Shown in pieces: positions 585-51,839 of a stretch of 64,000 bases of DNA (positions are counted from its first letter, which is position 1; each line of letters begins with the position of its first letter). Source of the stretch: Candidatus Adlerbacteria bacterium RIFCSPHIGHO2_12_FULL_53_18 (GTDB lineage: Bacteria; Patescibacteriota; Minisyncoccia; Phycocordibacterales; SBAW01); NCBI GenBank assembly GCA_001775475.1, contig MEWW01000010.1, positions 5,143-69,142 of the forward strand, in the 5' to 3' direction. Both the position numbers and the translations under genes were made by a program. The notes under the pieces are model-generated. The model was not told the origin of the DNA and did not search any database. It was given only the letters and a program-made list of their open reading frames with translations.

Positions 585-626
585 ACGGCTTTACTGTATC
601 ACGACTATTAGGTAAGGTTTATAGAC

Positions 627-1511
627 GTGAAGCATGCAAAAATCGTTGCAGTGGTACTCGTGCCGGCAAGTTTCTTCTTTGCCGCCTATCATGCATGGGG
701 ATTTTTTATCGCAGCCTCGCAGCCGCTTGTCGTTGAGCCGGTATATGCCGAACAACTAGCTGCATCCGCGACAGCAGAGCCGGAATTTGTTGACACGACC
801 AACCCCAACGATCTTCTTCCCGACCTCCTGCCTCTGCCGCCACGCGATTTAAAGGTAGAGAAAATTGGGAACCAAGTTCTGCTCTACTTCAGCACAACCT
901 ACTACAACCAGGGGCGGGGCACCTTGGAGCTGCGTGCAGACCCTGCGACTGCCGGCCTTCGCGAGACAATAGAGCGCAATGTGTTGCAGCGCGTGTATCA
1001 AGCTGACGGTGCACATCGAGACAAACCGGTAGGCACATTTTTGTGGCACCAGGAACATCTGCACTACCACTACACTGACTTTATTACGTATGACCTTGAG
1101 CCCGTTGGTGCCCCAAAAAACGAGGAGCTTTCCGGCAACTTGGTCAAATCGACCTTTTGCCTGCGCGATGTATCACGAGTGTTTCTTGATCTCGCAAGCT
1201 CTTCTCCTGAAGCGACTTATAAGATCTGCGGCAAGGAGTTGCAAGGGGTTTCTGTCGGCTGGGGCGACACCTACTACTGGAACTACCCTGACCAAGCACT
1301 CGATATCACGGGCCTGGAGTCCGGCACCTACCGTCTAACTTTTGTCGCTAACCCCGAAAAGCGGCTCGAAGAAATACGCTACGACAACAACATCTCAAGT
1401 GCACTCTTCCGCCTCAACATGGATACCGCTACGGTTGATGTGCTTGAAGAGAATCCTAAGGAAACTCCGGAGGTCGAGCATATACATCTAGATTCGCCCT
1501 TTGGTATGTAA
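627..1511 (+). CDS. secreted lysyl oxidase (LOX)-like copper amine oxidase domain protein
   Basis: N-terminal TM/signal. C-terminal block aligns with the LOX catalytic domain: WHQEHLHYH (LOX copper site WxWHxCHxHYH), YDL, KSTFCLRDVS (LOX KASFCLEDTS, LTQ lysine), QGVSVGWGDTYY (LOX QGLSPGCYDTYG, LTQ tyrosine), DITGLESGTYRL..VANP...L.E..YDNN (LOX DITDVKPGNYIL.VSVNP). Confidence 0.55.
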   Translation: MKHAKIVAVVLVPASFFFAAYHAWGFFIAASQPLVVEPVYAEQLAASATAEPEFVDTTNPNDLLPDLLPLPPRDLKVEKIGNQVLLYFSTTYYNQGRGTLELRADPATAGLRETIERNVLQRVYQADGAHRDKPVGTFLWHQEHLHYHYTDFITYDLEPVGAPKNEELSGNLVKSTFCLRDVSRVFLDLASSSPEATYKICGKELQGVSVGWGDTYYWNYPDQALDITGLESGTYRLTFVANPEKRLEEIRYDNNISSALFRLNMDTATVDVLEENPKETPEVEHIHLDSPFGM

Positions 1512-1516
1512 TAAAT

Positions 1517-2659
1517 ATGAAATATTTTGCCTGGTCGCTCACTATTGTTGCACTGCTTGGAGTTCTGCTTCTTGTGGTCATCCCCGTGCCGCAGGAGCCA
1601 GCAGAACAGCACGTGGCAACAACAACACCAGCAACGAGCAACACTGCGGAGCCGCAGCTCTACACGGTAGTGGCTGAGGGCCTAGAAATTCCTTGGGACA
1701 TCGCATTTCTCCCGAACGGCTCACTGCTTGTCACAGAGCGCACGGGCCATGTAATTGAAATTCTGCAGGATGGCACCAGGCGCGAAATACCTGTACCCGG
1801 GGTTCGCCAAAGCGGCCTGCCTGCGCAGGCAGGCGAAGGTGGGCTTCTCGGTCTCACTCTGCACCCTGACTTTCAGGTCAATAACTACGTGTATCTCTAC
1901 ATGAGCGCTCCGGGAACTACGGAGCAGACGCAAAACCGCGTCGTGCGTTTTATCTACAAAAACGGTGTGCTGTCTGAAAACAGAGTAATTATCGAAAACA
2001 TCCCTGGGGCCATATATCACGACGGCGGCCGGATGGAGTTTGGACCGGACGACCGCCTTTATATAACGACCGGGGATGCAACGACTCCAGCAATAGCACA
2101 AAACCTACAGTCACTCGGCGGAAAGATACTGCGTTTGCACGACGACGGCGTAGTGCCGAGCGACAACCCCTTCGGTACTGCCGTATACTCCTATGGCCAT
2201 CGCAACCCGCAAGGCTTAGCATGGGATAGCGCCGGCCGGCTCTGGGAAACCGAGCACGGGCGCTCGGGTGTGCAGAGCGGTCTCGATGAAATCAATTTGA
2301 TAGAAAAAGGAAAGAACTACGGCTGGCCGGAGAACGAGGGCGACAAAGTTGCCATAGGTACCATGGCGCCAGTGCGTCACTCGGGTGCAAGCGACACCTG
2401 GGCACCTGCGAGTCTCGCCTACTTAAACGGCAAACTCTTTTTTGGCGGGTTGCGCGGCGAAGCGCTCTACGAAGCAGTACTTGATGGCACCCGCGTTGCA
2501 GAACTTAAAGAGCATTTTAAAGGCCAATTTGGCCGCATCCGCACGGTGCGCGTTGGCCCTGACGGCATGCTCTACCTCACCACAAGCAACACTGACGGCC
2601 GTGGCTCCCCTGCCGCAGGCGACGACAAAATAATCCGAGTCAATCCGGAACTGCTGTAA
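1517..2659 (+). CDS. PQQ-dependent soluble sugar (aldose/sorbosone) dehydrogenase family protein, N-terminal TM anchor
   Basis: Beta-propeller motifs typical of the YliI/sGDH family: EIPWDIAFLPNGSLLVTER, GGLLGLTLHPDF, HDGGRMEFGPDDRLYITTGD, YSYGHRNPQGLAWD, KNYGWPE. Confidence 0.8.
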   Translation: MKYFAWSLTIVALLGVLLLVVIPVPQEPAEQHVATTTPATSNTAEPQLYTVVAEGLEIPWDIAFLPNGSLLVTERTGHVIEILQDGTRREIPVPGVRQSGLPAQAGEGGLLGLTLHPDFQVNNYVYLYMSAPGTTEQTQNRVVRFIYKNGVLSENRVIIENIPGAIYHDGGRMEFGPDDRLYITTGDATTPAIAQNLQSLGGKILRLHDDGVVPSDNPFGTAVYSYGHRNPQGLAWDSAGRLWETEHGRSGVQSGLDEINLIEKGKNYGWPENEGDKVAIGTMAPVRHSGASDTWAPASLAYLNGKLFFGGLRGEALYEAVLDGTRVAELKEHFKGQFGRIRTVRVGPDGMLYLTTSNTDGRGSPAAGDDKIIRVNPELL

Positions 2660-2743: not shown

Positions 2744-3889
2744 ATGCATAAATGGATGAACGTGGCGGTCGTTGGTAACGGTAACCGCGAGAAAGCGATG
2801 AAATCAGTCATCGAGCCCAGCGCGGGGAGTTCTCGAGTGAACTCCTGCGTTCTGGTCCCTTGGACAACTATAGATGAAGTGGTTGCCCAGGTTCTGGACA
2901 CAGCAGACCTTGTCACTATCGGCCCCGAAGCCCCGCTTGTTGCAGGGCTTGCCGACAAGTTGCATTCGCTCGGTATACCGACGGTTGGTCCGACTGCGGC
3001 GGCGGCAAAGCTCGAAGGTAGCAAAGTCTTCGGGCGCAAGATCTGCAAGGAAGCCATAGTTCGCACGCCGAGATACTGGCGAATTGATTCGGAACGCGAC
3101 GCTGAGGCTTTGCTTGCCAACTGGGAGGGACCTATCGTCGTCAAATGGGACGGGCTCTGGGGCGGTAAGGGCGTAACCATACATCATTCTGCGAGAGAAG
3201 CTCTCGCAAAGGTAAGCGAGGGCTTGCCTCACGGCCCTGTGCTAATCGAGGAATTCCTGGTCGGACAAGAGATATCTGTCTTCTTCGCCTGCGACGGCGT
3301 CAACGGCAGGTTCGTGGGCGATGCCTGCGACAAGAAGAAGCTTCTGGAGAATGACGAGGGCCCGAACACTGGCGGTATGGGGGCATGGTCCCCCTCTTCC
3401 TATCTCACTTCTCATTTGCTGGAGGAAATCCAGGGCGACATTGTCGAGCCGGTGTTGCAGGTCATGAAGCAAAGAGGAGTCCCATATCATGGGATTCTCT
3501 ACCTCGGATTGATGCTGGTGAATGTGGGTGGAACCATTCTCATCTACCTGATCGAGTTCAACTGCAGGTGGGGCGATCCGGAAGCGCAAGTCATCTTGCC
3601 CCGGCTCAAGACAAACTTCGTGAACATCTTGACCGCCACTCTCGAAACAGGCGGGCTTGAAAGTCTTCCTCCGATCGAGTTCTACTCGACAAAACTCGTG
3701 GGGGTTACCATTGCCGGGAAAGACTATCCGAAGAAAGGCAGCCGACTCCGGACAGTCGTTGGGTCTGGCAAGACTTACCGCGCGGCTCACCTCGATGCCT
3801 ACGGACAAATCGAGGAGATGAAAGATAGCGGTGTTTTGGTGGTGCAGGACATCCAATACCGCACCGACATCGGCGTCGGTATCGTCTAG
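2744..3889 (+). CDS. purD: phosphoribosylamine--glycine ligase (ATP-grasp)
   Basis: MNVAVVGNGNREKA (PurD N-term VLVIGSGGREHA), IVVKWDGLWGGKGV, GPNTGGMGAWSP and EFNCRWGDPEAQ are all PurD signatures. GAGGT lies 4 nt upstream of the ATG. Confidence 0.8.
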   Translation: MHKWMNVAVVGNGNREKAMKSVIEPSAGSSRVNSCVLVPWTTIDEVVAQVLDTADLVTIGPEAPLVAGLADKLHSLGIPTVGPTAAAAKLEGSKVFGRKICKEAIVRTPRYWRIDSERDAEALLANWEGPIVVKWDGLWGGKGVTIHHSAREALAKVSEGLPHGPVLIEEFLVGQEISVFFACDGVNGRFVGDACDKKKLLENDEGPNTGGMGAWSPSSYLTSHLLEEIQGDIVEPVLQVMKQRGVPYHGILYLGLMLVNVGGTILIYLIEFNCRWGDPEAQVILPRLKTNFVNILTATLETGGLESLPPIEFYSTKLVGVTIAGKDYPKKGSRLRTVVGSGKTYRAAHLDAYGQIEEMKDSGVLVVQDIQYRTDIGVGIV

Positions 3890-3910
3890 CGATCTGCAAT
3901 AAAGAGAACA

Positions 3911-3947
3911 GCCCCGGCGGTCTGCACCGCCGGGGCTTTTGTTTTTT
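3911..3947. terminator. rho-independent terminator (bidirectional) between purD and the convergent small minus-strand gene
   Basis: GC hairpin gccccggcgg-tctgcac-cgccggggc followed by ttttgtttttt on the plus strand. The complementary strand also carries a T-rich tail. Confidence 0.7.
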
Positions 3948-4591: not shown

Positions 4592-4984
4592 ATGGACAGC
4601 ACCACCATGTTCCTCGCCCAGACGCTTGGGCTTTATTTTGTTATCCTGGGCGCGCTTGTGCTCATTCGCCAGTCGTCGATGCTGCGCGTGTTTTCGGGGC
4701 TTACTAAGAGCCCGTTGGCGCTCTATATGATTGCCCTTCTTGAGCTTATTGCCGGTCTTATGCTCACAGTTGCCTACCCCACTGTCGGCACCGATGTTGC
4801 GGGCATCCTTTCAATAATCGGCTACATGCTCATCGTTGAAGGCATCTTCTACCTAGGTGTGCCCCTCGGCGTCTCACGCAAGTTCATTAACAAGTTCAAC
4901 ACAAGTTCGTGGTACGTGGCAGGCGGCGTTGCGGCAATCGCGCTCGGCTCCTATCTCGCGGGCCTGGGCTTTGGATACCTTTAG
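4592..4984 (+). CDS. small integral membrane protein (4 predicted TM), unknown function
   Basis: ORF of 130 aa with hydrophobic segments throughout. A promoter-like TTACAA..TATCAAT lies upstream. Confidence 0.5.
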   Translation: MDSTTMFLAQTLGLYFVILGALVLIRQSSMLRVFSGLTKSPLALYMIALLELIAGLMLTVAYPTVGTDVAGILSIIGYMLIVEGIFYLGVPLGVSRKFINKFNTSSWYVAGGVAAIALGSYLAGLGFGYL

Positions 4985-14523: not shown

Positions 14524-15482
14524 ATAGAAAAACTGCTCGGGTTGAAGGTGTTTTCATCTATCGTCTTTTCCTCTGCCGGTCGGTCGTCAACGGGTGTGTC
14601 CGGAGCCGCTGTGTCCGAGGGCTTTTGTTCCTGAGATTCCGGCGAAGTTCCGGTAGCTCGCGCCTGCAGCGCCGCAAAGAGAGCGCGCAGGTCTTCTTCA
14701 GTCATGTAGTCAATCGAGAGCTTGCCGCCTTTGTCTTTAGGCTCAATCACGACGCGCGTGCCAAGAGCCGTTGCCAAGTCGCGCTCCATTTCCAGCACCT
14801 CCGGCGAAAAGAGATATTCCTTTTTGCGTACGCGGTCAACCGCAATCCGCCGCGCGATATTTTCCGAGTCGCGCACAGTGAGCTTCTTGAGCATGATTTC
14901 CTTAAAGAGTGTCTGCTGCTCGGCAGGGCGGTCAATAAGCATGAGGAGCGGCCGCGAGTGACCCTCCGAAATCTTGCCGTCTGTCAGAGCTTGCTGCATC
15001 TCTGGCGGCATCATAAGGAGCCGTACCGTATTGGCGACGTACTCGCGGCTCTTGCCTATCTTTTCTGCAATCTGCCCATGCTTAAAGCCGAACTCGTCGT
15101 GCAGCCGGTTAAAGGCCGTTGCGCGGTCCATGGGGTTGAGGTCCTCGCGCTGGAGGTTTTCGATAATAGCGAGCTCGAGCTTGGTTTTATCGTCGTCATC
15201 CACCTCGCGTATGAGGGTCGGCACGGTAGCAAGCCCCGCAATCTTTGCAGCGCGGAGCCGCCGCTCACCCGCCACGAGTTCATACTCGGTCGCGATGCCG
15301 CCATCGGGTTTTTGCACCTCCTGGCGGTTGACAGTTAAGGGTTGCAAAATACCGTACTGGCGTACCGAGCGCGCCAGGTCGTTAAGTTTATCTTCGTCGA
15401 ACTCTCGCCGTGGCTGAAAAGGGTTCGGTTTTATCTTGTCTACCTCAACCCAAAAAATAGCGTTGTTGTAAAACCCTGCCAT
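14520..15482 (-). CDS. parB: ParB/Spo0J-like partition protein with an acidic/Pro-rich C-terminal tail
   Basis: ParB N-terminal box GILQPLTV, ELVAGERRLRAAKIAG, HTH region. The start is set at ATG 15482 because the longer listed ORF would overlap tRNA-Leu. No parA is present in the window. Confidence 0.75.
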   Translation of the reverse strand: MAGFYNNAIFWVEVDKIKPNPFQPRREFDEDKLNDLARSVRQYGILQPLTVNRQEVQKPDGGIATEYELVAGERRLRAAKIAGLATVPTLIREVDDDDKTKLELAIIENLQREDLNPMDRATAFNRLHDEFGFKHGQIAEKIGKSREYVANTVRLLMMPPEMQQALTDGKISEGHSRPLLMLIDRPAEQQTLFKEIMLKKLTVRDSENIARRIAVDRVRKKEYLFSPEVLEMERDLATALGTRVVIEPKDKGGKLSIDYMTEEDLRALFAALQARATGTSPESQEQKPSDTAAPDTPVDDRPAEEKTIDENTFNPSSFSI

Positions 15483-15506
15483 GTCGCCCCATTGTATCAA
15501 ACTTTG

Positions 15507-15587
15507 TGCCGGAGGTGGGACTCGAACCCACACCCCTTGCGGGACACGATTTTGAGTCGTGCGCGGCTGCCATTACGCCACTCCGGC
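15507..15587 (-). tRNA. tRNA-Leu (anticodon CAA)
   Basis: 81-nt GCCGGAG...CACGA CTCAAAA TCGTG, long variable arm TCCCGCAAGGGGTG, GTGGG TTCGAGT CCCAC, CTCCGGC-A. Confidence 0.8.
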
Positions 15588-15665
15588 TTGATAATTACTG
15601 TACCCTACCCTGCCCAAAATCTCTATGGTAGTGTGGCAAAGGCACGAACCTTGAGGAGAAAACCG

Positions 15666-16388
15666 ATGCCAAAAACCGGACTAATTTTCGCCTACGATTT
15701 CAGCACCTTCGACGACAAGGCCGCTTTGCTCAAGGAGATTGCATCGCATGTTGACCTCATCAAGGTCGGCCTGCAAGCAATAACGGCACTTGGCCCGGAG
15801 CACGTGAGTATTGCGTACACAGTCCAGAGCTTCACAGGGACAGTCCTGCAAAAAAAGGTGATGTGGGACGAGAAACTGCTCGACATCGGCAACACGATCG
15901 AAGGTGCAGCGAAGAACATTGCTCTGCTTTCAAGCGTGAGCCTCGCTACCCTACATGCCCAGATGAGCACCGCAGGGCTTCAAGCAGTTGTGCGAGCCTG
16001 GGAGGGTAAGATCACTCCTCTCGCGGTAACCGCCCTTACCGACCTCGACGACCAGGCGTGCTGGGACAGATTTCGTCGCGATGCCGCCCAGACCGTTATT
16101 GATTTCGCCAAGATCGCGTACAGCAACGGCATCCGCGGTTTTGTCTGCTCGCCTCACGAAGCACGAGAGATCCGCAACAGGTTCTCCGATGTTACTATCG
16201 TGACGCCGGCGATTCGCCCCCTGTGGGCAGTTGCCAAGGACGAGCAGAAGCGGGTCATGACACCGACCAAGGCTGTACAGGCAGGCGCCGACTATATTGT
16301 GGTTGGGCGGCCGATCTCAAAGCCACCCGAGGGCAAAACCTCCGAACACGCAGCACGCGAGATCCGTGAAGAACTCGAGGCGGCGTAA
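15666..16388 (+). CDS. pyrF: orotidine 5'-phosphate decarboxylase
   Basis: GAGGAG RBS then ATG. DFSTFDDKAALLKEI...DLIKVGL, KLLDIGNTI, VCSPHEA, VTPAIRP, TPTKAVQAGADYIVVGRPI. The 5' extension in the ORF track overlaps the tRNA and was rejected. Confidence 0.7.
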   Translation: MPKTGLIFAYDFSTFDDKAALLKEIASHVDLIKVGLQAITALGPEHVSIAYTVQSFTGTVLQKKVMWDEKLLDIGNTIEGAAKNIALLSSVSLATLHAQMSTAGLQAVVRAWEGKITPLAVTALTDLDDQACWDRFRRDAAQTVIDFAKIAYSNGIRGFVCSPHEAREIRNRFSDVTIVTPAIRPLWAVAKDEQKRVMTPTKAVQAGADYIVVGRPISKPPEGKTSEHAAREIREELEAA

Positions 16389-18986: not shown

Positions 18987-19679
18987 CTACCGCAAGAGGT
19001 CAAATGACGTCCCGTTCCAGAGTGCGACGGTAGTCCCCTCCTCATAGCTGGACCCGTTCCATATGTATCTAACTATTCGAGTCAAATAGCCCGTGTCTCC
19101 ATGTACTGACAAAAGTAAATCACTGTAACTGTTGGTCTTTGTGGAAAGGATCCCTACCCACTCATAGGTAAGCGTGGTAAATATGAGCTGCCACTTTGTA
19201 CCATTTTTTTTGTGAATATCCACGGGGCAGCCGGCTGTTCCACAATAACCCGGCATATCGAGGCGTACGAACGCCTCTGTCGTGCCGTCTCCGTCGAGGT
19301 CCTGTAGAGCCACACCAATTATAGGTTCCGGTGCCGTGGGGTAGAACTTTTTGTAGTCTTCAAACTCTACTTTATAAAGTGCGTATAAGTCTCCGCTTCC
19401 GCCCGTCGAGGTGGCTACGTTGGAAAATGCAAGGCGCTTCGCTCCAAGCGTTGCAAACACCGACGCATAAGACATATCCGGATCGATTTCAGCTCCTTGT
19501 GAGGACACTGGCACCGTTACCGTTTGAGTGTAGTCCGGGTTGGTGGAAATTGACTGGTTTTGCCCCCCAAGCTCTACCGGTGTGTTATCGCTTTCCTGCA
19601 GCAGGTACCAAACTCCCACTCCTCCTAACCCGAGAAGGGCCACCACTGCTATCAAAATACTGAGAGTTTTTATCTGCAT
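18987..19679 (-). CDS. membrane-anchored secreted hypothetical protein
   Basis: N-terminal TM (LSILIAVVALLGLGGVGVWYLL) then a Thr/Gly-rich extracytoplasmic domain. No family recognised. Confidence 0.45.
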   Translation of the reverse strand: MQIKTLSILIAVVALLGLGGVGVWYLLQESDNTPVELGGQNQSISTNPDYTQTVTVPVSSQGAEIDPDMSYASVFATLGAKRLAFSNVATSTGGSGDLYALYKVEFEDYKKFYPTAPEPIIGVALQDLDGDGTTEAFVRLDMPGYCGTAGCPVDIHKKNGTKWQLIFTTLTYEWVGILSTKTNSYSDLLLSVHGDTGYLTRIVRYIWNGSSYEEGTTVALWNGTSFDLLR

Positions 19680-19682
19680 ATG

Positions 19683-20900
19683 TTATTGCAAAATTATACT
19701 CCTCGCGTTTGCCACGTTAGGTACGTACGAACGGGTTTCGGCGTAGCCCGAGTTTGCCGTACACTGCCACCAGGTTTGGCCCGGACAGTCGAAGCTTCGG
19801 TTATTTGCTCTGGGGCCTCCATTGTACGCTGCTATCGTGTTGGTACTTCTGCCAAACTGGCCTTCCATTTGAGTTAAATATTTAACGCCAAGCGTCATGT
19901 TGTAGACAGGATCTTTCAAACGAGCGGTGATTTCCGAGTTCGACAGCCCCGCAAGAGACGAGTCGAGCCCCCTTGCAGTGTCAGGGCATACCTGCATTAA
20001 CCCGACACAGCGGGCAGGGCTCACCGCCCCCGCGTTGCCGTTAGACTCAATCGCCATCACTGCTTGTGCCATTTCACAGTCACTGTAACCCTGCTGTCTG
20101 CAAATGGTCTGCAGTTGTGCGGCATACTGGTTAGTGCCTTGTATTTTTGCCTCAAGCTGGGCGACAGAGAAGATGCGTGCGTTCGGGTCGGTGGTGAGCG
20201 GCCCGGTTAAGCCTGCGGTCGTGGACACGATAGTGGGTTCGACTTGGTCGCAAGCTTCTTGAAATTGACATGAAGAATTAACACAGACTTGCTGCATCTG
20301 GTTGTACTTGTATCCATTGGGACATGTGACTTGTATGACACTGCCTGGTGACGACCCTGAGGGGGCCGAAATGGCTTTAATTGGAAGAGGGGTGGTTGGA
20401 ATAACCTCGCCAAGAAGATCACTCAAACTTGCGTTTCTTAAGCGCTCTTCCCTGCTGCACTGGAGTTCGTTCCAGCTACCTCCTATCCAAAAGTCCTGGT
20501 CAAACACGACGCTCAGCAGAGTCTGCACAACAAGGTAGGCTGAAATCGCGATTAAAAAGCCGATGAGTACACTTTTAAATATCTTATGTGCCTTGCTTAT
20601 CTGAGTGGGGTTTGAGCCTCCGGTCACATAGAGAAACCCGGCATAGGCAAACATTGCCGCCGCGACTGAGACTGAAAGTCCGATAAGGAAGTTGATAATG
20701 TTCTGCATCAACTGCCCCAGGCTGCATAGATCGCAACCTGTAGTTGTTCTTATGTATTCGCTGTAAGCGGGAGTATTCTGTTCTGGTATCGGCCCTTCCC
20801 ACACTCCACAAGGGACTAACCCCTGCGCGTCCGCAATCAGAGGAATGGAGAGCCACAACAATGCAGCTACAAAAAAGAGCAAAGCACGCTGCTTTTGCAT
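19683..20900 (-). CDS. fusion protein: VirB2/TrbC-like pilin module (signal peptide + two TM helices) + Cys-rich linker + family-1 lytic transglycosylase (SLT) domain
   Basis: Signal peptide ending ADAQG. TM1 INFLIGLSVSVAAAMFAYAGFLYV, short loop, TM2 SVLIGFLIAISAYLVVQTLL, the same layout as the 32.2-33.7 kb pilin paralogs. C-terminal SLT motifs AIESNGNAGAVSPARCVGLMQV (catalytic Glu; ES..S.AxGLMQ) and AAYNGGP. Confidence 0.6.
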   Translation of the reverse strand: MQKQRALLFFVAALLWLSIPLIADAQGLVPCGVWEGPIPEQNTPAYSEYIRTTTGCDLCSLGQLMQNIINFLIGLSVSVAAAMFAYAGFLYVTGGSNPTQISKAHKIFKSVLIGFLIAISAYLVVQTLLSVVFDQDFWIGGSWNELQCSREERLRNASLSDLLGEVIPTTPLPIKAISAPSGSSPGSVIQVTCPNGYKYNQMQQVCVNSSCQFQEACDQVEPTIVSTTAGLTGPLTTDPNARIFSVAQLEAKIQGTNQYAAQLQTICRQQGYSDCEMAQAVMAIESNGNAGAVSPARCVGLMQVCPDTARGLDSSLAGLSNSEITARLKDPVYNMTLGVKYLTQMEGQFGRSTNTIAAYNGGPRANNRSFDCPGQTWWQCTANSGYAETRSYVPNVANARSIILQ

Positions 20901-21060: not shown

Positions 21061-22299
21061 TCAAAAATTTTCGGCAATCGCCGGAGCTTTTTGCGTATGA
21101 GGCTGCTCCCATAAGTCCCATAGATGCTTGGCCACATGCACCGGCGTGCCATAGAGAGGTTCCAAGTGCAGGTCTATCCATGGCAGCGAGTTTGCCTCGA
21201 TTATTCCCCACATTTGGGATTGAGGGCTCTCTTTCGGATTTTGAATAATCAAATCAAATCCGACCACCGGAAGCTTCGTAAGCCTGGCTGCGCGCTCTAT
21301 CTCTTTTTTAAGCTCGGGGTGTATGTCGGTACCGTGTTCCCACGTCCTGCCGCCGGACAAACGACCTGCCCAGTAAACCAGCGGGAGCATCTTGCCCTTC
21401 TCTAACACGCTATCTAGCGTATAACCGCGCCGCTCAACATAGCACTCGTGCAGAGGAGTAATCTCTATATCTTCAACCCGCACAGGTTTGTTTTTATTTT
21501 CCCTCTCGACGAGCTCACGGACGGTCGAGCTGCCGTCGCCCACGACCGTCGGATATTTAGACTCTAAAAACCCGATCATCTGGCCGTTGACGCAGGTGGC
21601 GCGGCCGACATTTCCCTCCAGATGCTGCTCGATAGCTACCCAATGGCAAAGTTTTTTAGCGGACGCAAATGCCTTTACGAGCTCTGCGGAAGTTGAAACA
21701 TGAGGAAAGGTATGCCGTCCGTTTGAGCCGGTACGCGGCTTAACACACGCGGTACCTAACTGTTTGAGCGCGGCGCTCGCCTGGTGCAGAGTTGAGACAC
21801 TGAAAGAGAGGGGTGCGGCAACTCCTGCCTCTTTAAACTTCTGCTTTAACAGATGTTTGTCGTCGGCCCACAGCGTTCCTGCGCGGTATATGGGTGGTAT
21901 GGGTAGGCTGTAAAAAATGCGCATCATGCCGAAAATATTGGCCTCAAAAAACTCGGTGGGGATTCCAAATACAAAAAACTGCTGCATGGGGATGCCGCGC
22001 AGCCGTGCCTCTTGCCATACTGCGCGTGAGCGCTTGGTGCACGCCTGCTCTAAATCGTCATTACGAGACACAACGTGTAAGAACTCTGCCGCCCGAAACA
22101 AAGGCGGCAACACCGGCGCCACCAGACGGGCAAAGCCGCGCGAGCATGCAGAGAAAAAAGCGGAAAGCCGTGTAGGAGCCCCAAGCGAGCTTATGCCGAT
22201 TTCAAGCGTACTGCTCACCCATACAGACCAATGGTCGGCTGAGACCGCGCCGCACTCAGAGCAGTATTTTTGGATGCCCTTTCCTACAGTGAGTTGCAC
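21061..22299 (-). CDS. ATP-grasp peptide-ligase-like protein (cyanophycin synthetase/RimK-like ATP-grasp domain) with an N-terminal CxxC motif
   Basis: ACVKPRTGSNGRHTF (ATP-grasp K-loop), VVGDGSSTVRELVERENKN (CphA-like GDG.sTi.eLi), C-terminal acidic/Mg-binding region FDLIIQNP. 412 aa, no Mur-ligase domain. Confidence 0.45.
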   Translation of the reverse strand: MQLTVGKGIQKYCSECGAVSADHWSVWVSSTLEIGISSLGAPTRLSAFFSACSRGFARLVAPVLPPLFRAAEFLHVVSRNDDLEQACTKRSRAVWQEARLRGIPMQQFFVFGIPTEFFEANIFGMMRIFYSLPIPPIYRAGTLWADDKHLLKQKFKEAGVAAPLSFSVSTLHQASAALKQLGTACVKPRTGSNGRHTFPHVSTSAELVKAFASAKKLCHWVAIEQHLEGNVGRATCVNGQMIGFLESKYPTVVGDGSSTVRELVERENKNKPVRVEDIEITPLHECYVERRGYTLDSVLEKGKMLPLVYWAGRLSGGRTWEHGTDIHPELKKEIERAARLTKLPVVGFDLIIQNPKESPQSQMWGIIEANSLPWIDLHLEPLYGTPVHVAKHLWDLWEQPHTQKAPAIAENF

Positions 22300-30140: not shown

Positions 30141-30215
30141 TGGAGGCCACGGCGGGAATCGCACCCGCGTATAAGGGATTTGCAGTCCCTTGCCTTACTA
30201 CTTGGCGACGTGGCC
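30141..30215 (-). tRNA. tRNA-Cys (anticodon GCA), CCA encoded
   Basis: GGCCACG-TC-GCC AAGTAGTA AGGC-A-AGGGA CTGCAAA TCCCT-TATAC-GCGGG TGCGATT CCCGC-CGTGGCC-T-CCA. The T-loop TGCGATT is atypical. Confidence 0.6.
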
Positions 30216-30255
30216 GTGTTTTTAAATCTAGCATTTGGTGGTAAAAATAGGAAAC

Positions 30256-30337
30256 GCCCGGGTGGCGGAATCGGTATACGCGCTCGACTTAAGATCGAGT
30301 TCCGTAAGGAATGTGAGTTCGAGTCTCACCCCGGGCA
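30256..30337 (+). tRNA. tRNA-Leu (anticodon TAA)
   Basis: GCCCGGG...CGACTTAAGATCG, long variable arm, GAGTTCGAGTCTCAC, CCCGGGC-A; 82 nt. Confidence 0.8.
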
Positions 30338-30376
30338 CTATCAAAAAAAGAAAATTTGTTGTATTTTATTTGTATT

Positions 30377-30449
30377 CCGCCCATAGCTCAGTTGGTAGAG
30401 CAGCTCCCTCTTAAGGAGACGGTCCGAGGTTCGAATCCTCGTGGGCGGA
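30377..30449 (+). tRNA. tRNA-Lys (anticodon CTT)
   Basis: CCGCCCA-TA-GCTC AGTTGGTA GAGC-A-GCTCC CTCTTAA GGAGA-CGGTC-CGAGG TTCGAAT CCTCG-TGGGCGG-A. It has C1:G72 and a G27.A43 mismatch. Confidence 0.7.
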
Positions 30450-30459
30450 CCCGCAAAAT

Positions 30460-30541
30460 GCTGGGGTGGCGGAATTGGTATACGCGCCAGTCTTAGGAAC
30501 TGGTGCCGCAAGGCTTGGAGGTTCGAGTCCTCTCCCCAGCA
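30460..30541 (+). tRNA. tRNA-Leu (anticodon TAG)
   Basis: GCTGGGG...CCAGT CTTAGGA ACTGG, variable arm TGCCGCAAGGCT, TGGAGGTTCGAGTCCTCT, CCCCAGC-A; 82 nt. Confidence 0.8.
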
Positions 30542-30672
30542 CAAAAGTCCTCATTTCACCCTTGTTTTGCAAGGTTTTTTTGCTTGACAAAACCGTATAA
30601 AATGATATAATAACAAACGGACTAGCGGCCTCTGTAGCCGCGTGAAAAATCTGAACCTTGAGAGGTAAGCAA

Positions 30673-35569: not shown

Positions 35570-35606
35570 ACATAATGTGTGGCTATCTGAACCGGAGGAA
35601 AGTTAC

Positions 35607-37025
35607 ATGGAGATGGAACTTAACGCACTGACCGCACTAAGCCCGGTGGACGGGAGGTATCGGCGCCACATCGTAGACCTGGTACCTCACATGAGCGAAT
35701 ATGGCCTTATCCGGGCGCGCCTCGAGGTACTTATCGAGTACCTGATAACGTTTTCTGAACATCGTGATACACCGCTGCGAGCATTTACGCCGACGGAGTA
35801 CAAGATGCTCAACGAGTTCAAGAAGGTGTCGGTTGAAAATGCCGCCATCATCAATAAAATCGAAACGCAGGGATATAAGGACATCAAGGCAACCAACCAC
35901 GATGTGGTCGCGGCGATCAAGTATCTGCGCATGGTGCTTCAAGGCACTTCGCTTGGCGATATCGTCGAGTGGGTGCACTTTGGCCGTACCTCGGAGGACG
36001 TTAATAACCTTGCCTACGCGCTCATGCTGCGGCGGGCAGCAAGCGTCCTCTTGGCAGAGGTTATTGCGGTGCGGGATGCACTGCGAAGCTTTGCCCTGCA
36101 GTATGCCGCACTTCCGATGCTTGGGCGTACTCACGGCCAACCCGCAACCCCAACGACACTCGGCAAAGAATTCAACGTGTTTGCCGAGCGCCTTACGAAG
36201 CACATCTTCAAGCTGCGGCAATTCGAACTCTTGGTGAAATGTAATGGGGCGAGCGGCAACTACAGTGCCGACGTGAAAGCGCTCCCCAAGGTCGAGTGGA
36301 TCAGCTTTACCTACGACTTTGTTCTGCGACTCAACAAAATATCTGCAGAAGAGAGATTGCTGCCCTTCGTCGTGAACGAGGTGACAACGCAAATCGAGCC
36401 CCATGACACCTACGCCGAGTTCTTCGGCATCTTCATGCGGATCAACACAATCCTGATCGGACTTTCACAGGATGTATGGCGTTACATCAGCGACGACTGG
36501 TTGATGCAAAAAACAGTCGAGGGCGAAGTTGGCTCCTCGGCCATGCCGCAGAAGGTCAACCCGATCGACGACGAGAACGCTGAAGGAAACTTGGGGTTGT
36601 CGAACGCGATGTTGGAATTTTTCTGTAGAAAGCTCCCCATCTCGCGCCTGCAGCGGGATCTCTCGGACTCCACGGTTGAGCGTGCGTTTGGGATGGCGCT
36701 CGGACACTCCCTCATCGGTTACAAGGCCCTGCTGAAGGGGCTTGGCAAGATCTCGGCCGACCAGGCCAAGATAATCACTGAACTTGAAAATCGTCCTGAA
36801 GTGCTCGCGGAGGCCATACAAACCATATTACGTCGCGAAGGCGTAAGCGGTGGATATGACCTCCTCAAGGAGGAAACTCGAGGCAAACCGGTGTCTCTTG
36901 CGAGTTTGCACAAAAGGATCGACTCGCTTGATATCCCGGAGGCCGTAAAGGAGGAGTTGCGAGCCTTAAAGCCCTCGAACTTTACGGGGCTTGCCGTGGC
37001 GCTGGCGGCCAGGTTCACCGACTAA
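35607..37025 (+). CDS. purB: adenylosuccinate lyase
   Basis: GGAGG RBS 8 nt upstream of ATG 35607. LSPVDGRY, HFGRTSEDVNN, fumarate-lyase signature GSSAMPQKVNPID. The ORF-track start 35577 is a GTG extension. Confidence 0.85.
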   Translation: MEMELNALTALSPVDGRYRRHIVDLVPHMSEYGLIRARLEVLIEYLITFSEHRDTPLRAFTPTEYKMLNEFKKVSVENAAIINKIETQGYKDIKATNHDVVAAIKYLRMVLQGTSLGDIVEWVHFGRTSEDVNNLAYALMLRRAASVLLAEVIAVRDALRSFALQYAALPMLGRTHGQPATPTTLGKEFNVFAERLTKHIFKLRQFELLVKCNGASGNYSADVKALPKVEWISFTYDFVLRLNKISAEERLLPFVVNEVTTQIEPHDTYAEFFGIFMRINTILIGLSQDVWRYISDDWLMQKTVEGEVGSSAMPQKVNPIDDENAEGNLGLSNAMLEFFCRKLPISRLQRDLSDSTVERAFGMALGHSLIGYKALLKGLGKISADQAKIITELENRPEVLAEAIQTILRREGVSGGYDLLKEETRGKPVSLASLHKRIDSLDIPEAVKEELRALKPSNFTGLAVALAARFTD

Positions 37026-51516: not shown

Positions 51517-51556
51517 TACTAGCCCTTAAGGGCGCCTAGATAGTATCAAATTCTAG

Positions 51557-51629
51557 TGCGCGGTGCAGGACTTGAACCTGCGACCCTCCCCACGTCAAGG
51601 GGATGCTCTGCCAACTGAGCTAACCGCGC
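51557..51629 (-). tRNA. tRNA-Val (anticodon GAC)
   Basis: GCGCGGT-TA-GCTC AGTTGGCA GAGC-A-TCCCC TTGACGT GGGGA-GGGTC-GCAGG TTCAAGT CCTGC-ACCGCGC-A. Confidence 0.8.
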
Positions 51630-51681
51630 TTGGAAAAGAGTATAGCCGAAAATGGCCAAAAATGGTACTTTGTGGTCTATT

Positions 51682-51766
51682 GGAGAGGTGGCTGAGTGGT
51701 CGAAAGCACCGGTTTCGAAAACCGGCATACCGCAAGGTATCGTGGGTTCGAATCCCACCCTCTCCG
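51682..51766 (+). tRNA. tRNA-Ser (anticodon CGA)
   Basis: GGAGAGG...CACCGGTTTCGAAAACCGG, long variable arm CATACCGCAAGGTATC, GTGGGTTCGAATCCCAC, CCTCTCC-G; 85 nt. Confidence 0.8.
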
Positions 51767-51767
51767 C

Positions 51768-51839
51768 GGCCCCATCGTCTAACGGTTAGGACGCCGGCTT
51801 TTCAAGCCGTTAATCCGGGTTCGATTCCCGGTGGGGTCA
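51768..51839 (+). tRNA. tRNA-Glu (anticodon TTC), starting 1 nt after tRNA-Ser
   Basis: GGCCCCA-TC-GTCT AACGGTTA GGAC-G-CCGGC TTTTCAA GCCGT-TAAT-CCGGG TTCGATT CCCGG-TGGGGTC-A. Confidence 0.7.

What the first reader, a model, noticed from the sequence alone, without database searches (positions are those of the whole stretch)
627..2659. Secreted lysyl-oxidase-like copper enzyme adjacent to a PQQ-type sugar dehydrogenase
The C-terminal ~150 aa of ORF 627..1511 align block by block with the animal LOX catalytic domain. Matching blocks are the copper-site histidines WH..H.HYH, KSTFCLRD (LTQ lysine), GWGDTYY (LTQ tyrosine) and DITG..GTY.L..VANP. LOX homologues are rare in bacteria and are thought to have been acquired horizontally. 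Finding one in a small-genome CPR-like organism is unexpected. Its immediate downstream neighbour is a membrane-anchored PQQ-dependent aldose/sorbosone dehydrogenase. The two together suggest an extracytoplasmic oxidative module, possibly for cross-linking or modifying host or matrix polymers.
Basis: partly seen in the sequence, partly recalled or inferred. Interest (0 to 1): 0.55.

Follow-up and report, generated by a model that had tools for sequence, protein, structure and literature searches.

The report
Coupled lysyl oxidase and PQQ dehydrogenase
A tiny symbiotic (CPR) bacterium encodes a copper lysyl-oxidase-type enzyme next to a PQQ-dependent sugar/aldehyde dehydrogenase; the two genes are paired or fused across this bacterial group, the first concrete clue to what bacterial lysyl oxidases do.

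Summary
ORF 627..1511 is a lysyl oxidase (LOX) family protein: PF01186 E 8.6e-16, human LOXL2 the only significant fold match, and the copper His triad and both cofactor residues (Lys174, Tyr216) invariant in 116 relatives. ORF 1517..2659 is a GSDH-family PQQ dehydrogenase (PF07995 E 1.4e-79) with its catalytic and PQQ-binding motifs intact. Both have N-terminal membrane anchors. The organism is Candidatus Adlerbacteria (CPR).

LOX homologues are not rare: there are 5830 clusters at 50% identity. This copy also shows no sign of recent transfer, since its GC and codon usage are normal and it belongs to a deep CPR clade.

The new result is that the pairing is conserved. In the LOX clade that contains this gene, 49 of 52 assessable species-level loci have a GSDH-family gene adjacent. 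Of those, 13 are single LOX–GSDH fusion proteins, and a reverse-order GSDH–LOX fusion also exists. In other bacterial LOX loci the count is 0 of 20. No searched paper reports this pairing.

Most likely this is a cell-surface two-enzyme oxidative module. I favour amine to aldehyde (LOX) to acid or lactone (GSDH), probably on cell-wall material. The order of reactions and the substrate are inferred, not shown.

The parts
585..626 (.). 42-nt divergent intergenic region between a minus-strand AI-2E-family transporter gene (which runs off the window start) and the LOX gene. Presumed promoter region; an AAGG lies about 14 nt before the GTG start.
   Evidence: Gene layout on identical contigs; sequence. 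No consensus sigma-70 site was found here, so the promoter is inferred only.
627..1511 (+). LOX-family copper amine oxidase gene (294 aa; GenBank OGC84685.1, UniProt A0A1F4XSN2).
   Evidence: PF01186 E 8.6e-16; LOXL2 5ze3 E 6.6e-8; AF2 pLDDT 90.2 with Foldseek hit to 5ze3 at E 9.6e-10; 100% match to P0001.
627..719 (+). N-terminal signal-anchor/transmembrane helix of LOX (residues 1-31, MKHAKIVAVVLVPASFFFAAYHAWGFFIAAS). The positive N-terminus implies the catalytic domain faces outside.
   Evidence: Sequence; AF2 helix 2-31. Topology is inferred from the positive-inside rule.
813..1454 (+). LOX catalytic domain (residues ~63-276), starting at the conserved LLPDLLPLPP motif.
   Evidence: Family conservation; Foldseek alignment of about 250 columns to LOXL2; HMM matches of distant bacterial LOX cover profile positions ~57-280.
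1056..1070 (+). Copper-site histidines H144-L-H146-Y-H148.
   Evidence: Aligned with HRHYH of LOXL2; invariant in 116 homologues.
1146..1148 (+). K174, predicted LTQ lysine (KSTFCLRD).
   Evidence: Aligned with the K of KASFCLED in LOXL2. LOXL2 LTQ is formed from Lys653 and Tyr689 per PMC9694262. Invariant.
1272..1274 (+). Y216, predicted LTQ tyrosine (GWGDTY).
   Evidence: Aligned with the Y of GCWDMY in LOXL2; invariant.
1158..1229 (+). Segment bounded by C178 and C201, the only two cysteines in the protein. A probable disulfide next to the LTQ lysine.
   Evidence: Both Cys invariant. The disulfide itself was not tested.
1455..1508 (+). C-terminal tail (residues 277-294, P..P.VEHIHLDSPFGM), conserved only in one subclade. 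Function unknown.
   Evidence: P277 and P281 invariant, E284 and H285 >=90% conserved. The motif is present in L001-L027-type loci and absent in the sister subclades.
1512..1516 (+). 5-nt spacer between the LOX stop (TAA) and the GSDH ATG. Indicates tight operon coupling.
   Evidence: Sequence. No terminator-like site lies between the genes.
1517..2659 (+). GSDH-family six-bladed PQQ-dependent sugar/aldehyde dehydrogenase gene (380 aa; OGC84686.1), with an N-terminal membrane anchor (residues ~5-24).
   Evidence: PF07995 E 1.4e-79; 3a9g E 2.7e-74, 3das and 2ism ~1e-68; named 'PQQ-dependent sugar dehydrogenase' in relatives.
2018..2020 (+). H168 of the YHDGGR motif, the predicted catalytic base of GSDH.
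   Evidence: Aligned with HNGGR of 3a9g and 3das; invariant in 133 relatives including the fusion proteins. The role is assigned from knowledge of sGDH/Asd.
2198..2206 (+). H228-R229-N230 of the GHRNPQG motif, predicted PQQ-binding residues.
   Evidence: Conserved against 3a9g and 3das; invariant.
2534..2542 (+). R340-I-R342 (GRIR motif), predicted PQQ carboxylate-binding arginines.
   Evidence: Aligned with GRLR of 3a9g and 3das; invariant.

Best explanation
Genes 627..1511 and 1517..2659 form a two-gene operon. It encodes a cell-surface oxidative module anchored on the outer face of the membrane of a Candidatus Adlerbacteria (CPR) cell.

The first enzyme is a true lysyl-oxidase-family copper amine oxidase. 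It should self-process Lys174 and Tyr216 into the lysine tyrosylquinone (LTQ) cofactor at a Cu site formed by His144, His146 and His148. It would then use O2 to convert a primary amine (R-CH2-NH2, e.g. a peptidyl lysine) into an aldehyde plus NH3 and H2O2.

The second enzyme is a six-bladed GSDH-type dehydrogenase. It must obtain PQQ from outside the cell.

I propose that the two act in sequence on the same extracellular target. LOX makes the aldehyde. The PQQ enzyme oxidises it further, as its hydrate, hemiacetal or hemiaminal, to an acid, lactone or lactam. This would be an extracytoplasmic, NAD-independent counterpart of the classic 'amine oxidase + aldehyde dehydrogenase' pair. The target is probably cell-wall (peptidoglycan-associated) material.

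Shown: the family membership of both proteins, their intact active-site residues, and their conserved genetic coupling and fusion.

Inferred: extracytoplasmic topology, cofactor formation, the order of the reactions, and the substrate.

Sub-confidences: identity of the two enzymes ~0.95; that they function together ~0.9; the sequential amine-to-aldehyde-to-acid mechanism ~0.35-0.4.
For: LOX identity.

GSDH identity and intact motifs. Invariant residues are H168, H228, R229, N230, E246, H247, W270, P271, R340 and R342.

Coupling:
- The two genes are 5 nt apart on the same strand.
- In the LOX clade containing this gene, 49 of 52 assessable species-level loci have a GSDH-family gene adjacent. 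That is 32 separate downstream, 13 as one LOX-GSDH ORF of 756-910 aa, and 4 with a divergent GSDH/TrAA12-like gene upstream. In the other bacterial LOX clade the count is 0 of 20.
- Both Pfam domains are confirmed within single polypeptides.
- A reverse-order GSDH-LOX fusion exists, P0315, with a linker of only about 20 aa.
- Where the two proteins are separate in the fusion clade, both carry the same 51-aa repeat domain.
- The pair keeps its adjacency while the surrounding genes differ.
- Active-site residues of both enzymes are retained in the fusions.

Sequential logic (established knowledge):
- LOX products are aldehydes.
- The GSDH family includes sorbosone (aldehyde/hemiacetal) dehydrogenases.
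- PQQ enzymes are the usual extracytoplasmic substitutes for NAD-dependent aldehyde dehydrogenases.
- Amine oxidase and aldehyde dehydrogenase genes are commonly linked (E. coli tynA-feaB).

Substrate hints:
- Longer family members carry a YceG/MltG N-terminal region in front of LOX: 41.6 bits against a cut-off of 32.4, profile positions 1-146 of 275.
- Peptidoglycan enzymes are occasional neighbours: VanY, and M23 with PG_binding_1.
- A characterised archaeal LOX has broad amine specificity, including Lys polymers and aminoglycosides.
Against: - No biochemical data exist for any member of this clade.
- The GSDH is closest to ordinary aldose sugar dehydrogenases (3a9g, 2ism, 2g8s). Its natural substrate could therefore simply be a sugar.
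- GSDH occurs without LOX in some CPR genomes (L092, L093), and LOX occurs without an adjacent GSDH in 3 loci.
- One GSDH partner carries a C-terminal cytochrome b5 domain. This fits an electron-transfer relationship at least as well as substrate hand-over.
- In most fusions about 150 aa of repeat domains separate the two catalytic domains. This does not suggest tight channelling.
- In animals the LOX aldehyde is itself the useful product, for cross-linking. Further oxidation would destroy it.
- How PQQH2 would be re-oxidised in an organism without a respiratory chain is unexplained.
- The window protein itself lacks both the YceG-like domain and the repeat domain.
Confidence: 0.4

Rival explanations
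1. Redox-partner model. The PQQ dehydrogenase oxidises a sugar, for example on host or own surface glycans. It passes the electrons to the LOX protein, directly or in some lineages via a fused cytochrome b5 domain. The Cu/LTQ centre of LOX then reduces O2. LOX would thus act as the terminal oxidase that a respiratory-chain-less CPR cell needs to recycle PQQH2. This parallels fungal AA12 PQQ pyranose dehydrogenase feeding electrons to copper LPMOs.
For: - The coupling evidence is the same as for the best explanation.
- A GSDH-cytochrome b5 fusion (HPGG motif) is encoded immediately after a YceG-LOX gene.
- Some partners are TrAA12-like.
- There is precedent for a PQQ-dehydrogenase-to-copper-enzyme electron flow in PMC5960967.
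- The GSDH is very similar to ordinary sugar dehydrogenases.
- CPR genomes lack pqq genes, and (from my own knowledge) typically lack respiratory chains.
- The asymmetry fits: non-CPR LOX never has this neighbour.
Against: - LOX enzymes are not known to accept external electrons, and their catalytic cycle needs none.
- Strict conservation of the substrate-side LTQ Lys/Tyr is expected for amine oxidation, though it is also compatible with a quinone relay.
- The cytochrome b5 fusion was seen once among the 120 top GSDH hits.
- GSDH exists in CPR without LOX.
Confidence: 0.2
2. Same-target, independent-chemistry model. Both enzymes are brought to the same polymer but do unrelated jobs. The polymer would be the peptidoglycan or surface layer of the CPR cell or of its host. 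LOX would convert lysine side chains to allysine for Schiff-base or aldol cross-links or for adhesion. GSDH would oxidise reducing-end sugars of the glycan.
For: - The shared 51-aa repeat occurs on both proteins when they are separate.
- A YceG/MltG-like N-terminal domain occurs on long LOX forms.
- Peptidoglycan enzymes are neighbours in some loci.
- Long flexible repeat linkers occur in the fusions.
- Animal LOX is a cross-linker (established knowledge).
Against: - Independent functions rarely give 94% adjacency together with fusions in both orders, one of them with a linker of only about 20 aa.
- No peptidoglycan- or glycan-binding function has been demonstrated for the repeat. It has no Pfam or PDB match.
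Confidence: 0.2
3. Helper model. The GSDH partner does not process a substrate of its own pathway. Instead it supports LOX, for example by consuming the H2O2 or aldehyde by-products as a detoxifier. Alternatively it assists formation or maintenance of the quinone cofactor, as the flavoprotein LodB does for the quinoprotein lysine oxidase LodA.
For: - The dependency looks one-sided: LOX of this clade nearly always has GSDH, while GSDH can occur alone.
- CPR cells have few peroxide defences (general knowledge).
- The two-gene lodAB operon is a precedent (own knowledge).
Against: - LTQ biogenesis in LOX is regarded as autocatalytic with Cu and O2.
- The GSDH keeps a complete dehydrogenase active site.
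- No precedent is known for a six-bladed PQQ propeller acting as a maturation factor or a peroxidase.
Confidence: 0.07
4. Coincidence or recent import. The LOX gene is a recent horizontal acquisition that happens to lie next to an unrelated housekeeping sugar dehydrogenase.
For: LOX phylogeny in general shows horizontal transfers.
Against: - GC, GC3 and codon usage of both genes are within the range of 25 other window genes.
- The pairing is conserved while LOX identity falls to about 34%.
- Fusion proteins exist.
- The GSDH-associated LOX sequences form one clade.
Confidence: 0.02

Closest known systems
Animal lysyl oxidases (LOX, LOXL1-4; structure 5ze3 of human LOXL2)
   Same: Same catalytic domain family (PF01186) and fold. 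Same HxHxH copper site. Same Lys and Tyr that form LTQ. Extracellular location.
   Different: About 20% identity. No SRCR domains or propeptide; instead an N-terminal membrane anchor. Only two cysteines, where (from my own knowledge) the LOXL2 catalytic domain has several disulfides. It has an obligate PQQ-dehydrogenase partner, which no animal LOX has. No collagen or elastin substrate exists in this context.
Haloterrigena turkmenica HTU-LOX, a biochemically characterised prokaryotic LOX (PMC6452851)
   Same: A prokaryotic single-domain LOX with a hydrophobic N-terminus. It shows that prokaryotic LOX domains can be active, BAPN-sensitive amine oxidases with broad specificity (Lys polymers, diamines, aminoglycosides, polymyxin).
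   Different: It belongs to a different LOX lineage. No GSDH partner is reported, and its native function is described as cryptic.
Soluble aldose sugar dehydrogenases of the GSDH family (3a9g/3a9h, 2ism, E. coli Asd/YliI 2g8s, A. calcoaceticus sGDH 1c9u)
   Same: Six-bladed propeller. All motif-level catalytic and PQQ-binding residues are present. Like E. coli Asd, the host cannot make PQQ and must scavenge it.
   Different: Membrane-anchored. Genetically coupled or fused to a LOX domain. Scores below NCBIfam's TIGR03606 cut-off (146.6 against 434.55). The physiological substrate is unknown.
Fungal AA12 PQQ pyranose dehydrogenase (CcPDH, with AA8 cytochrome b and CBM1) driving copper LPMOs (PMC5960967, PMC4332668)
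   Same: An extracellular six-bladed PQQ dehydrogenase working with a mononuclear copper oxidative enzyme on a polymer surface. It has a heme b domain and a carbohydrate-binding module. One CPR partner likewise has a cytochrome b5 domain, and others have binding repeats.
   Different: The copper partner here is LOX (an amine oxidase with a quinone cofactor), not an LPMO. The direction, and even the existence, of electron transfer is unknown.
Amine oxidase plus aldehyde dehydrogenase catabolic pairs (e.g. E. coli tynA-feaB; own knowledge)
   Same: Genetic linkage of a copper/quinone amine oxidase with the enzyme that oxidises its aldehyde product.
   Different: There the second enzyme is a cytoplasmic NAD-dependent ALDH, and the oxidase is a TPQ copper amine oxidase. 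Here both enzymes are extracytoplasmic, and the second uses PQQ.
LodA/LodB and GoxA/GoxB (CTQ quinoprotein amino-acid oxidases with a partner gene; own knowledge)
   Same: A two-gene operon in which a protein-derived-quinone amine oxidase depends on the adjacent gene product. H2O2 is released outside the cell.
   Different: Unrelated folds. The partner is a flavoprotein needed for cofactor biogenesis.

Membership tests
Lysyl oxidase family (Pfam PF01186) | Significant match to the family profile above the curated threshold | tested here: met
   58.6 bits against a cut-off of 20.4, E 8.6e-16. All 116 aligned homologues carry PF01186 in the precomputed annotation (the one listed hit without it, P0085, was not aligned).
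Lysyl oxidase family (Pfam PF01186) | Three copper-ligand histidines in an HxHxH motif | tested here: met
   H144, H146 and H148 align with HRHYH of LOXL2 and are invariant in 116 sequences.
Lysyl oxidase family (Pfam PF01186) | Lysine and tyrosine that form the LTQ cofactor (LOXL2 Lys653/Tyr689) | tested here: met
   K174 and Y216 align with the corresponding LOXL2 residues. Both are invariant.
Lysyl oxidase family (Pfam PF01186) | LOX catalytic-domain fold | tested here: met
   AF2 pLDDT 90.2. Foldseek against PDB finds only 5ze3 as significant (E 9.6e-10, probability 1.00, ~250 columns).
Lysyl oxidase family (Pfam PF01186) | Actual Cu binding, LTQ formation and BAPN-sensitive amine oxidase activity | not testable with these tools
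   Needs the purified protein. The only prokaryotic precedent is HTU-LOX.
GSDH / soluble PQQ-dependent sugar dehydrogenase family (Pfam PF07995) | Significant match to the family profile and to solved PQQ sugar dehydrogenases | tested here: met
   268.2 bits against a cut-off of 25. 3a9g E 2.7e-74, 3das 3.6e-68, 2ism 1.1e-67, 1c9u 5.6e-29.
GSDH / soluble PQQ-dependent sugar dehydrogenase family (Pfam PF07995) | Catalytic His and PQQ-binding Arg/Asn/Arg-x-Arg motifs | tested here: met
   H168 (HDGGR), H228-R229-N230 (GHRNPQG), E246-H247, W270-P271 (NYGWP) and R340/R342 (GRIR) align with 3a9g and 3das. They are invariant in 133 relatives. Residue roles are assigned from knowledge of sGDH/Asd.
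GSDH / soluble PQQ-dependent sugar dehydrogenase family (Pfam PF07995) | Availability of PQQ | tested here: inconclusive
   No pqq gene was seen among the annotated window genes, but the window is only 64 kb. The preprint 10.64898/2026.07.10.737718 states that no CPR genome encodes PQQ biosynthesis. The cofactor would have to be scavenged.
NCBIfam TIGR03606 (non-repeat PQQ glucose/sorbosone dehydrogenase subfamily) | Score above the curated subfamily cut-off | tested here: not met
   146.6 bits against a cut-off of 434.55. The protein belongs to the broader GSDH family, not to this curated sGDH-like subfamily.
YceG/MltG-like N-terminal domain (PF02618) fused to LOX | Presence in the window protein | tested here: not met
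   The window protein (294 aa) has only a ~62-aa anchor and linker before the LOX domain. The domain is found in ~400-500-aa relatives: P0248 at 41.6 bits against a cut-off of 32.4, and the 466-aa protein of L089. A Foldseek search with the model of a long form did not retrieve MltG.

The most novel reading that the evidence does not exclude
The LOX-GSDH pair (a single fusion protein in some lineages) is a self-contained extracellular redox circuit built from two different quinone cofactors, protein-derived LTQ and scavenged PQQ. The reduced PQQ enzyme would be re-oxidised by the LOX copper/quinone centre or by the H2O2 that LOX makes. A CPR cell without a respiratory chain or catalase could then carry out a net four-electron oxidation of surface amines or sugars with O2, without releasing aldehyde or peroxide. 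This chemistry might be used on its own or its host's cell wall during episymbiosis.
Probability: 0.15. Interest if true: 0.8.

Novelty: new variant of a known kind. Interest (0 to 1): 0.6.

Why it matters
The native function of prokaryotic lysyl oxidases is described in the literature as enigmatic or cryptic (PMC6452851). A near-obligate partnership with a PQQ dehydrogenase is the first strong genomic-context clue to that function. The evidence is adjacency in about 94% of loci of a deep clade and fusion in both domain orders. It can be tested directly with two small recombinant ectodomains.

It also matters for CPR biology. These organisms are usually portrayed as anaerobic fermenters with minimal redox metabolism. 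Yet many carry a conserved, O2-, copper- and PQQ-dependent surface module whose organic cofactor must come from a host or neighbour. That suggests a role in the cell envelope or at the host interface.

The natural LOX-PQQ dehydrogenase fusions could also interest enzymologists as two-quinone oxidative catalysts.

Tried and rejected
1. Recent horizontal acquisition. Rejected. LOX has GC 0.524, GC3 0.569 and a codon-usage log-likelihood of -1.107; GSDH has 0.561, 0.593 and -1.096. Both lie within the spread of 25 other window genes.

2. 'Rare in bacteria.' Rejected.

3. The conserved C-terminal tail (P..P.VEHIH..PFG) as a docking element specific to LOX forms with a separate GSDH. Rejected. A sister subclade with a separate adjacent GSDH lacks the tail, and loci without an adjacent GSDH keep it.

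4. Identity of the 51-aa repeat in the fusion clade. No Pfam, NCBIfam or PDB sequence match was found. The repeat is absent from the window. It remains unidentified.

6. Literature search for any prior link between LOX and GSDH, PQQ or CPR. None was found. The only related items are a passing mention of Parcubacteria LOX and a 2026 preprint on CPR PQQ propellers that does not mention LOX.

7. My first greedy ORF caller missed two fusions (L049, L070), because a longer stop-free antisense frame overlapped them. This was corrected with an HMM search of all six-frame segments.

8. Promoter scan. No consensus sigma-70 site lies upstream of LOX. There is no terminator between GSDH and purD, and a strong one at 3910-3937 after purD. 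purD may therefore be co-transcribed here, but it is not a conserved neighbour elsewhere.


Full report
**1. What is in the sequence**

The window carries two tightly packed plus-strand ORFs: 627..1511 (GTG start, 294 aa) and 1517..2659 (ATG, 380 aa). They are separated by 5 nt (TAA-TAAAT-ATG). Upstream, 42 nt away and divergent, is an AI-2E-family transporter gene that runs off the window, as shown by identical contigs. Downstream, after an 85-nt gap with no terminator-like site, lies purD, followed by a strong bidirectional terminator at 3910-3937.

The exact LOX protein is OGC84685.1 / UniProt A0A1F4XSN2 of Candidatus Adlerbacteria bacterium RIFCSPHIGHO2_12_FULL_53_18. GenBank calls it 'hypothetical protein' and UniRef calls it 'Lysyl oxidase'. 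The neighbour is OGC84686.1. The rest of the window is ordinary CPR housekeeping: SerRS, DprA, TopA, RelA/SpoT, ParB, ClpB, IF-2, GyrA, FtsA/FtsZ and 14 tRNAs.

**2. The LOX assignment holds**

- PF01186 matches at E 8.6e-16, 58.6 bits against a cut-off of 20.4.
- phmmer against PDB finds human LOXL2 (5ze3) at E 6.6e-8. A profile of 116 relatives finds it at 5.4e-14.
- In those alignments WHQEHLHYH pairs with WHDCHRHYH, KSTFCLRD with KASFCLED, and GWGDTY with GCWDMY. LOXL2's LTQ cofactor is formed from Lys653 and Tyr689 (PMC9694262).
- In an alignment of 116 homologues, H144, H146, H148, K174, Y216, W140, H141 and the only two cysteines (C178, C201) are invariant.
- An AlphaFold2 model built on that alignment has mean pLDDT 90.2. 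Its only significant PDB match is LOXL2, at Foldseek E 9.6e-10, probability 1.00 and about 250 aligned columns.

Residues 2-31 form a hydrophobic helix after a positively charged start (MKHAK). I infer an N-in/C-out signal anchor that places the catalytic domain outside the cell.

**3. The neighbour is a GSDH-type PQQ dehydrogenase**

- PF07995 matches at E 1.4e-79.
- The closest solved structures are 3a9g/3a9h (E 2.7e-74), 3das and 2ism (about 1e-68), E. coli Asd 2g8s and sGDH 1c9u. PDB names 3a9g only 'putative uncharacterized protein'; from my own knowledge it is the Pyrobaculum aerophilum PQQ sugar dehydrogenase.
- The motifs that carry the catalytic base and the PQQ ligands in those enzymes are HDGGR, GHRNPQG, EHG, NYGWP and GRxR. 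All are present, and all are invariant across 133 relatives, including the GSDH halves of the fusion proteins.
- The protein scores below NCBIfam's sGDH-like subfamily cut-off. It is therefore a member of the broad family only.
- It also begins with a hydrophobic anchor (residues ~5-24).
- A July 2026 preprint reports six-bladed PQQ propellers in 247 CPR genomes and states that no CPR genome encodes PQQ synthesis. That preprint does not mention LOX.

**4.

LOX homologues are not rare.
- A profile search of 1.84 billion cluster representatives gives 5830 clusters at E<=1e-3 and 568 at E<=1e-30.
- 261 genome stretches in the species-representative collection matched two LOX peptide patterns.
- Grau-Bove et al. 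2015 already reported LOX in five bacterial phyla and two archaeal groups.
- Pestov et al. 2019 mention 'a few samples from Parcubacteria'.

Nor is this copy a recent import. LOX has GC 0.524, GC3 0.569 and a codon-usage log-likelihood of -1.107, and GSDH has 0.561, 0.593 and -1.096. Twenty-five other window genes have means of 0.543, 0.612 and -1.109, with standard deviations of 0.026, 0.059 and 0.059.

**5. The main new finding: the LOX-GSDH pairing is conserved and often a fusion**

I fetched 80 species-level genome loci encoding LOX relatives. I scored them with tblastn and with HMMs for both families. A neighbour-joining tree of the LOX domains splits them into two groups (midpoint-rooted, no support values).

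The first group contains the window gene.
- Its members are labelled Paceibacteria/Parcubacteria, Kaiser-, Colwell-, Giovannoni-, Doudna-, Uhr-, Komeili- and Terrybacteria, and 'Patescibacteria group'.
- Some co-assembly MAGs in it carry generic 'Saccharibacteria' or 'Gammaproteobacteria' labels, which I do not trust.
- 52 of its 56 loci have enough flanking DNA to judge.
- 32 have a GSDH gene immediately downstream on the same strand.
- 13 encode LOX and GSDH in one ORF of 756-910 aa.
- 4 have a divergent GSDH/TrAA12-like gene immediately upstream (PF07995 at 53-76 bits).
- 3 have none.

The second group contains Rhizobacter, Methylibium, two cultured Gammaproteobacteria isolates (Aerolutibacter, Montanilutibacter), Truepera, Verrucomicrobia, Planctomycetes, Actinomycetota, Chloroflexi and others. 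There, 0 of 20 assessable loci have a GSDH within about 5 kb.

Further points on the pairing:
- Pfam confirms both domains inside single polypeptides.
- A reverse-order fusion exists: P0315, 572 aa, with GSDH at 47-346 and LOX from ~366, joined by a linker of about 20 aa. It sits on a 166-kb contig.
- Metagenome look-ups gave the same picture for L005, L006, L008, L089 and L091. The surrounding genes differ in each, so the pair behaves as a self-contained cassette.
- LOX identity to the window protein falls to 34-40% in the fusion clade, while GSDH stays at 50-57%.
- All active-site residues of both enzymes persist in the fusions.
- Because the association maps to one clade, the counts reflect long retention of one or a few ancient events rather than 49 independent events. 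The two fusion orders are at least two independent events.

**6. Architectural variants give hints about location and substrate**

The family has several forms.
- (a) Short: TM-LOX, ~290 aa. This is the window form.
- (b) Long: TM, then a YceG/MltG-like N-terminal region, then LOX, ~400-500 aa.
  - P0248 scores 41.6 bits against a cut-off of 32.4, on profile positions 1-146 of 275.
  - The 466-aa protein of L089 has a precomputed YceG hit.
  - Weaker hits occur in P0107, P0070 and P0104.
- (c) Fusions: signal peptide, repeat, LOX, two to three repeats, GSDH.
- (d) The reverse fusion.

The repeat is a 51-aa unit with consensus LVRAEGDPRVYVINNGKKRWILSPEVFRSYGFSWSDVAVVPEAELDAYPEG. It has no Pfam or PDB match. 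Among the fetched loci it occurs only in these LOX and GSDH proteins. Where the two are separate genes in that clade (L053, L056, L060, L064), both carry it. This implies co-targeting.

From my own knowledge, positions 1-146 of the YceG profile precede the catalytic glutamate of MltG. The LOX-fused piece would then be the non-catalytic, glycan-strand-proximal part. This points to the cell wall, but I could not confirm the fold.

Occasional neighbours are peptidoglycan enzymes: VanY, and M23 with PG_binding_1.

One GSDH partner (P0195) carries a C-terminal cytochrome b5 domain with the HPGG motif. It is encoded directly after a YceG-LOX gene.

**7. How it most likely works**

Shown:
- Both proteins belong to their families.
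- Both have intact catalytic residues.
- They are coupled by conserved adjacency and by fusion.

Inferred:
- Both ectodomains face outward from N-terminal anchors.
- LOX forms LTQ with copper and oxidises a primary amine to an aldehyde, with NH3 and H2O2.
- GSDH uses scavenged PQQ.

My preferred mechanism (about 0.35-0.4) is sequential. LOX makes an aldehyde on a surface or cell-wall amine, and GSDH oxidises it further to an acid, lactone or lactam. The GSDH family includes sorbosone dehydrogenases and acts on hemiacetals. The pair would then be an NAD-independent, extracytoplasmic version of linked amine oxidase and aldehyde dehydrogenase genes.

The main rival (about 0.2) is a redox-partner model in which GSDH oxidises a sugar and LOX serves as the O2-reducing acceptor. 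It is supported by:
- the cytochrome b5 variant;
- the TrAA12-like partners;
- the fungal precedent of an AA12 PQQ dehydrogenase feeding a copper LPMO (PMC5960967);
- the restriction of the pairing to organisms that, from my own knowledge, lack a respiratory chain.

A third reading (about 0.2) is independent chemistries on one polymer: lysine cross-linking plus oxidation of glycan reducing ends.

Points against my preferred model:
- The GSDH closely resembles ordinary aldose dehydrogenases.
- GSDH occurs without LOX in CPR (L092, L093).
- Most fusions have long repeat linkers.
- There is no explanation for PQQH2 re-oxidation.

**8. Comparison with what is known, and novelty**

The LOX gene alone is a new member of a known family and is already auto-annotated. 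The GSDH alone is ordinary.

What I could not find in the literature is any link between LOX and a PQQ dehydrogenase, or any treatment of LOX in CPR beyond a passing mention. I therefore class the coupled or fused LOX-GSDH module as a new variant of known kinds.

It matters because the function of prokaryotic LOX is explicitly called enigmatic. It also shows a conserved O2-, Cu- and PQQ-dependent surface activity in organisms regarded as minimal fermenters.

**9. Verdict**

- Observation: confirmed.
- Interpretation: partly supported. The module idea is strongly upheld. Rarity and horizontal transfer are not. Cross-linking is undetermined.
- Interest: 0.6.

Noticed in passing
L045, L046, L048-L052, L057-L059, L061, L065, L070 (e.g. 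L050:4821-7256); P0282, P0302, P0355; P0315 = L094:5001-6719: Natural single-polypeptide LOX-GSDH fusions (756-910 aa) occur in 13 species-level genomes. A reverse-order GSDH-LOX fusion (572 aa) also exists. NCBI names one of them (MFZ2682046.1) only 'PQQ-dependent sugar dehydrogenase'.
   Followed up: yes
L050:4821-7256 residues ~44-94 and ~339-490; also L053, L056, L060, L064 proteins: An unannotated 51-aa repeat domain (consensus LVRAEGDPRVYVINNGKKRWILSPEVFRSYGFSWSDVAVVPEAELDAYPEG). Among the fetched loci it is found only in LOX and GSDH proteins of one clade. It has no Pfam, NCBIfam or PDB sequence match and is absent from the window.
   Followed up: partly
L089:6001-7356 (P0195) and L089:4611-6011: A GSDH with a C-terminal cytochrome b5 domain (HPGG motif) is encoded directly after a YceG-LOX protein, overlapping it by 11 nt. 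Among the 120 top GSDH hits it is the only one listed with PF00173.
   Followed up: partly
L005:6883-7152: A small GIY-YIG nuclease gene (89 aa) is inserted between LOX and GSDH in one Paceibacteria genome. It may be a mobile homing-endonuclease-type insertion in the operon.
   Followed up: no
L092:4001-6373 and L093:4001-6391: CPR loci with two convergent GSDH paralogues (one TrAA12-like) and no LOX within 4 kb. Their flanking genes (MgtC, Peptidase_M23, DoxX) resemble those next to a GSDH-less LOX in L007.
   Followed up: no
L041 (DATGWK010000031.1): A contig labelled 'Candidatus Nanoarchaeia archaeon' carries the LOX-GSDH pair with 41% and 59% identity to the window proteins. It clusters inside the Patescibacteria LOX clade. 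This is either mis-binning or a CPR-to-DPANN transfer.
   Followed up: no
L049:4014-7085 and L070:4206-7085 (minus strand): Stop-free antisense frames of about 960-1020 codons lie opposite the LOX-GSDH fusion genes. They are longer than the real gene and misled a greedy ORF caller.
   Followed up: partly
window 19683..20900 (-): A 405-aa protein combines a T4SS_pilin domain (E 2.3e-7) with an SLT lytic transglycosylase domain (E 3e-19). It lies in the lowest-GC stretch of the window (18-20 kb, GC 0.461), next to ORFs with no Pfam match (18987..19679, 21061..22299).
   Followed up: no
window 2744..3889 (+), 35577..37025 (+), 15342..16388 (+): Nucleotide-biosynthesis genes purD, purB (adenylosuccinate lyase) and an OMP-decarboxylase-family gene are present in this small-genome CPR organism. 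purD follows GSDH with no terminator and may be co-transcribed with the LOX-GSDH pair here. It is not a conserved neighbour elsewhere.
   Followed up: partly
window 3910..3937: A strong bidirectional intrinsic-terminator-like hairpin (12-bp stem, 10 GC pairs, T-runs on both strands) lies between purD and the region holding tRNA-Gln.
   Followed up: no
window 30141..30542 and 51556..51839: tRNA clusters: Cys/Leu/Lys/Leu within 400 nt, and Val/Ser/Glu within 290 nt. There are 14 tRNA genes in the 64 kb.
   Followed up: no
L001:1-9958 (region upstream of the window start on identical contigs): Upstream of the LOX operon lies a run of envelope and oxidative-stress genes: an AI-2E transporter, a P2-type cation ATPase, MsrA, Zincin_1, PsbP_2-like, VKOR, a Big_3_5 protein and a CAP-domain protein. 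VKOR and MsrA fit an oxidising extracytoplasmic compartment. AI-2E, MsrA and Zincin_1 recur next to the pair in L091.
   Followed up: no
window 4592..4984 (+): A 130-aa predicted multi-helix membrane protein with no significant Pfam match. It is conserved in position on the identical contigs.
   Followed up: no
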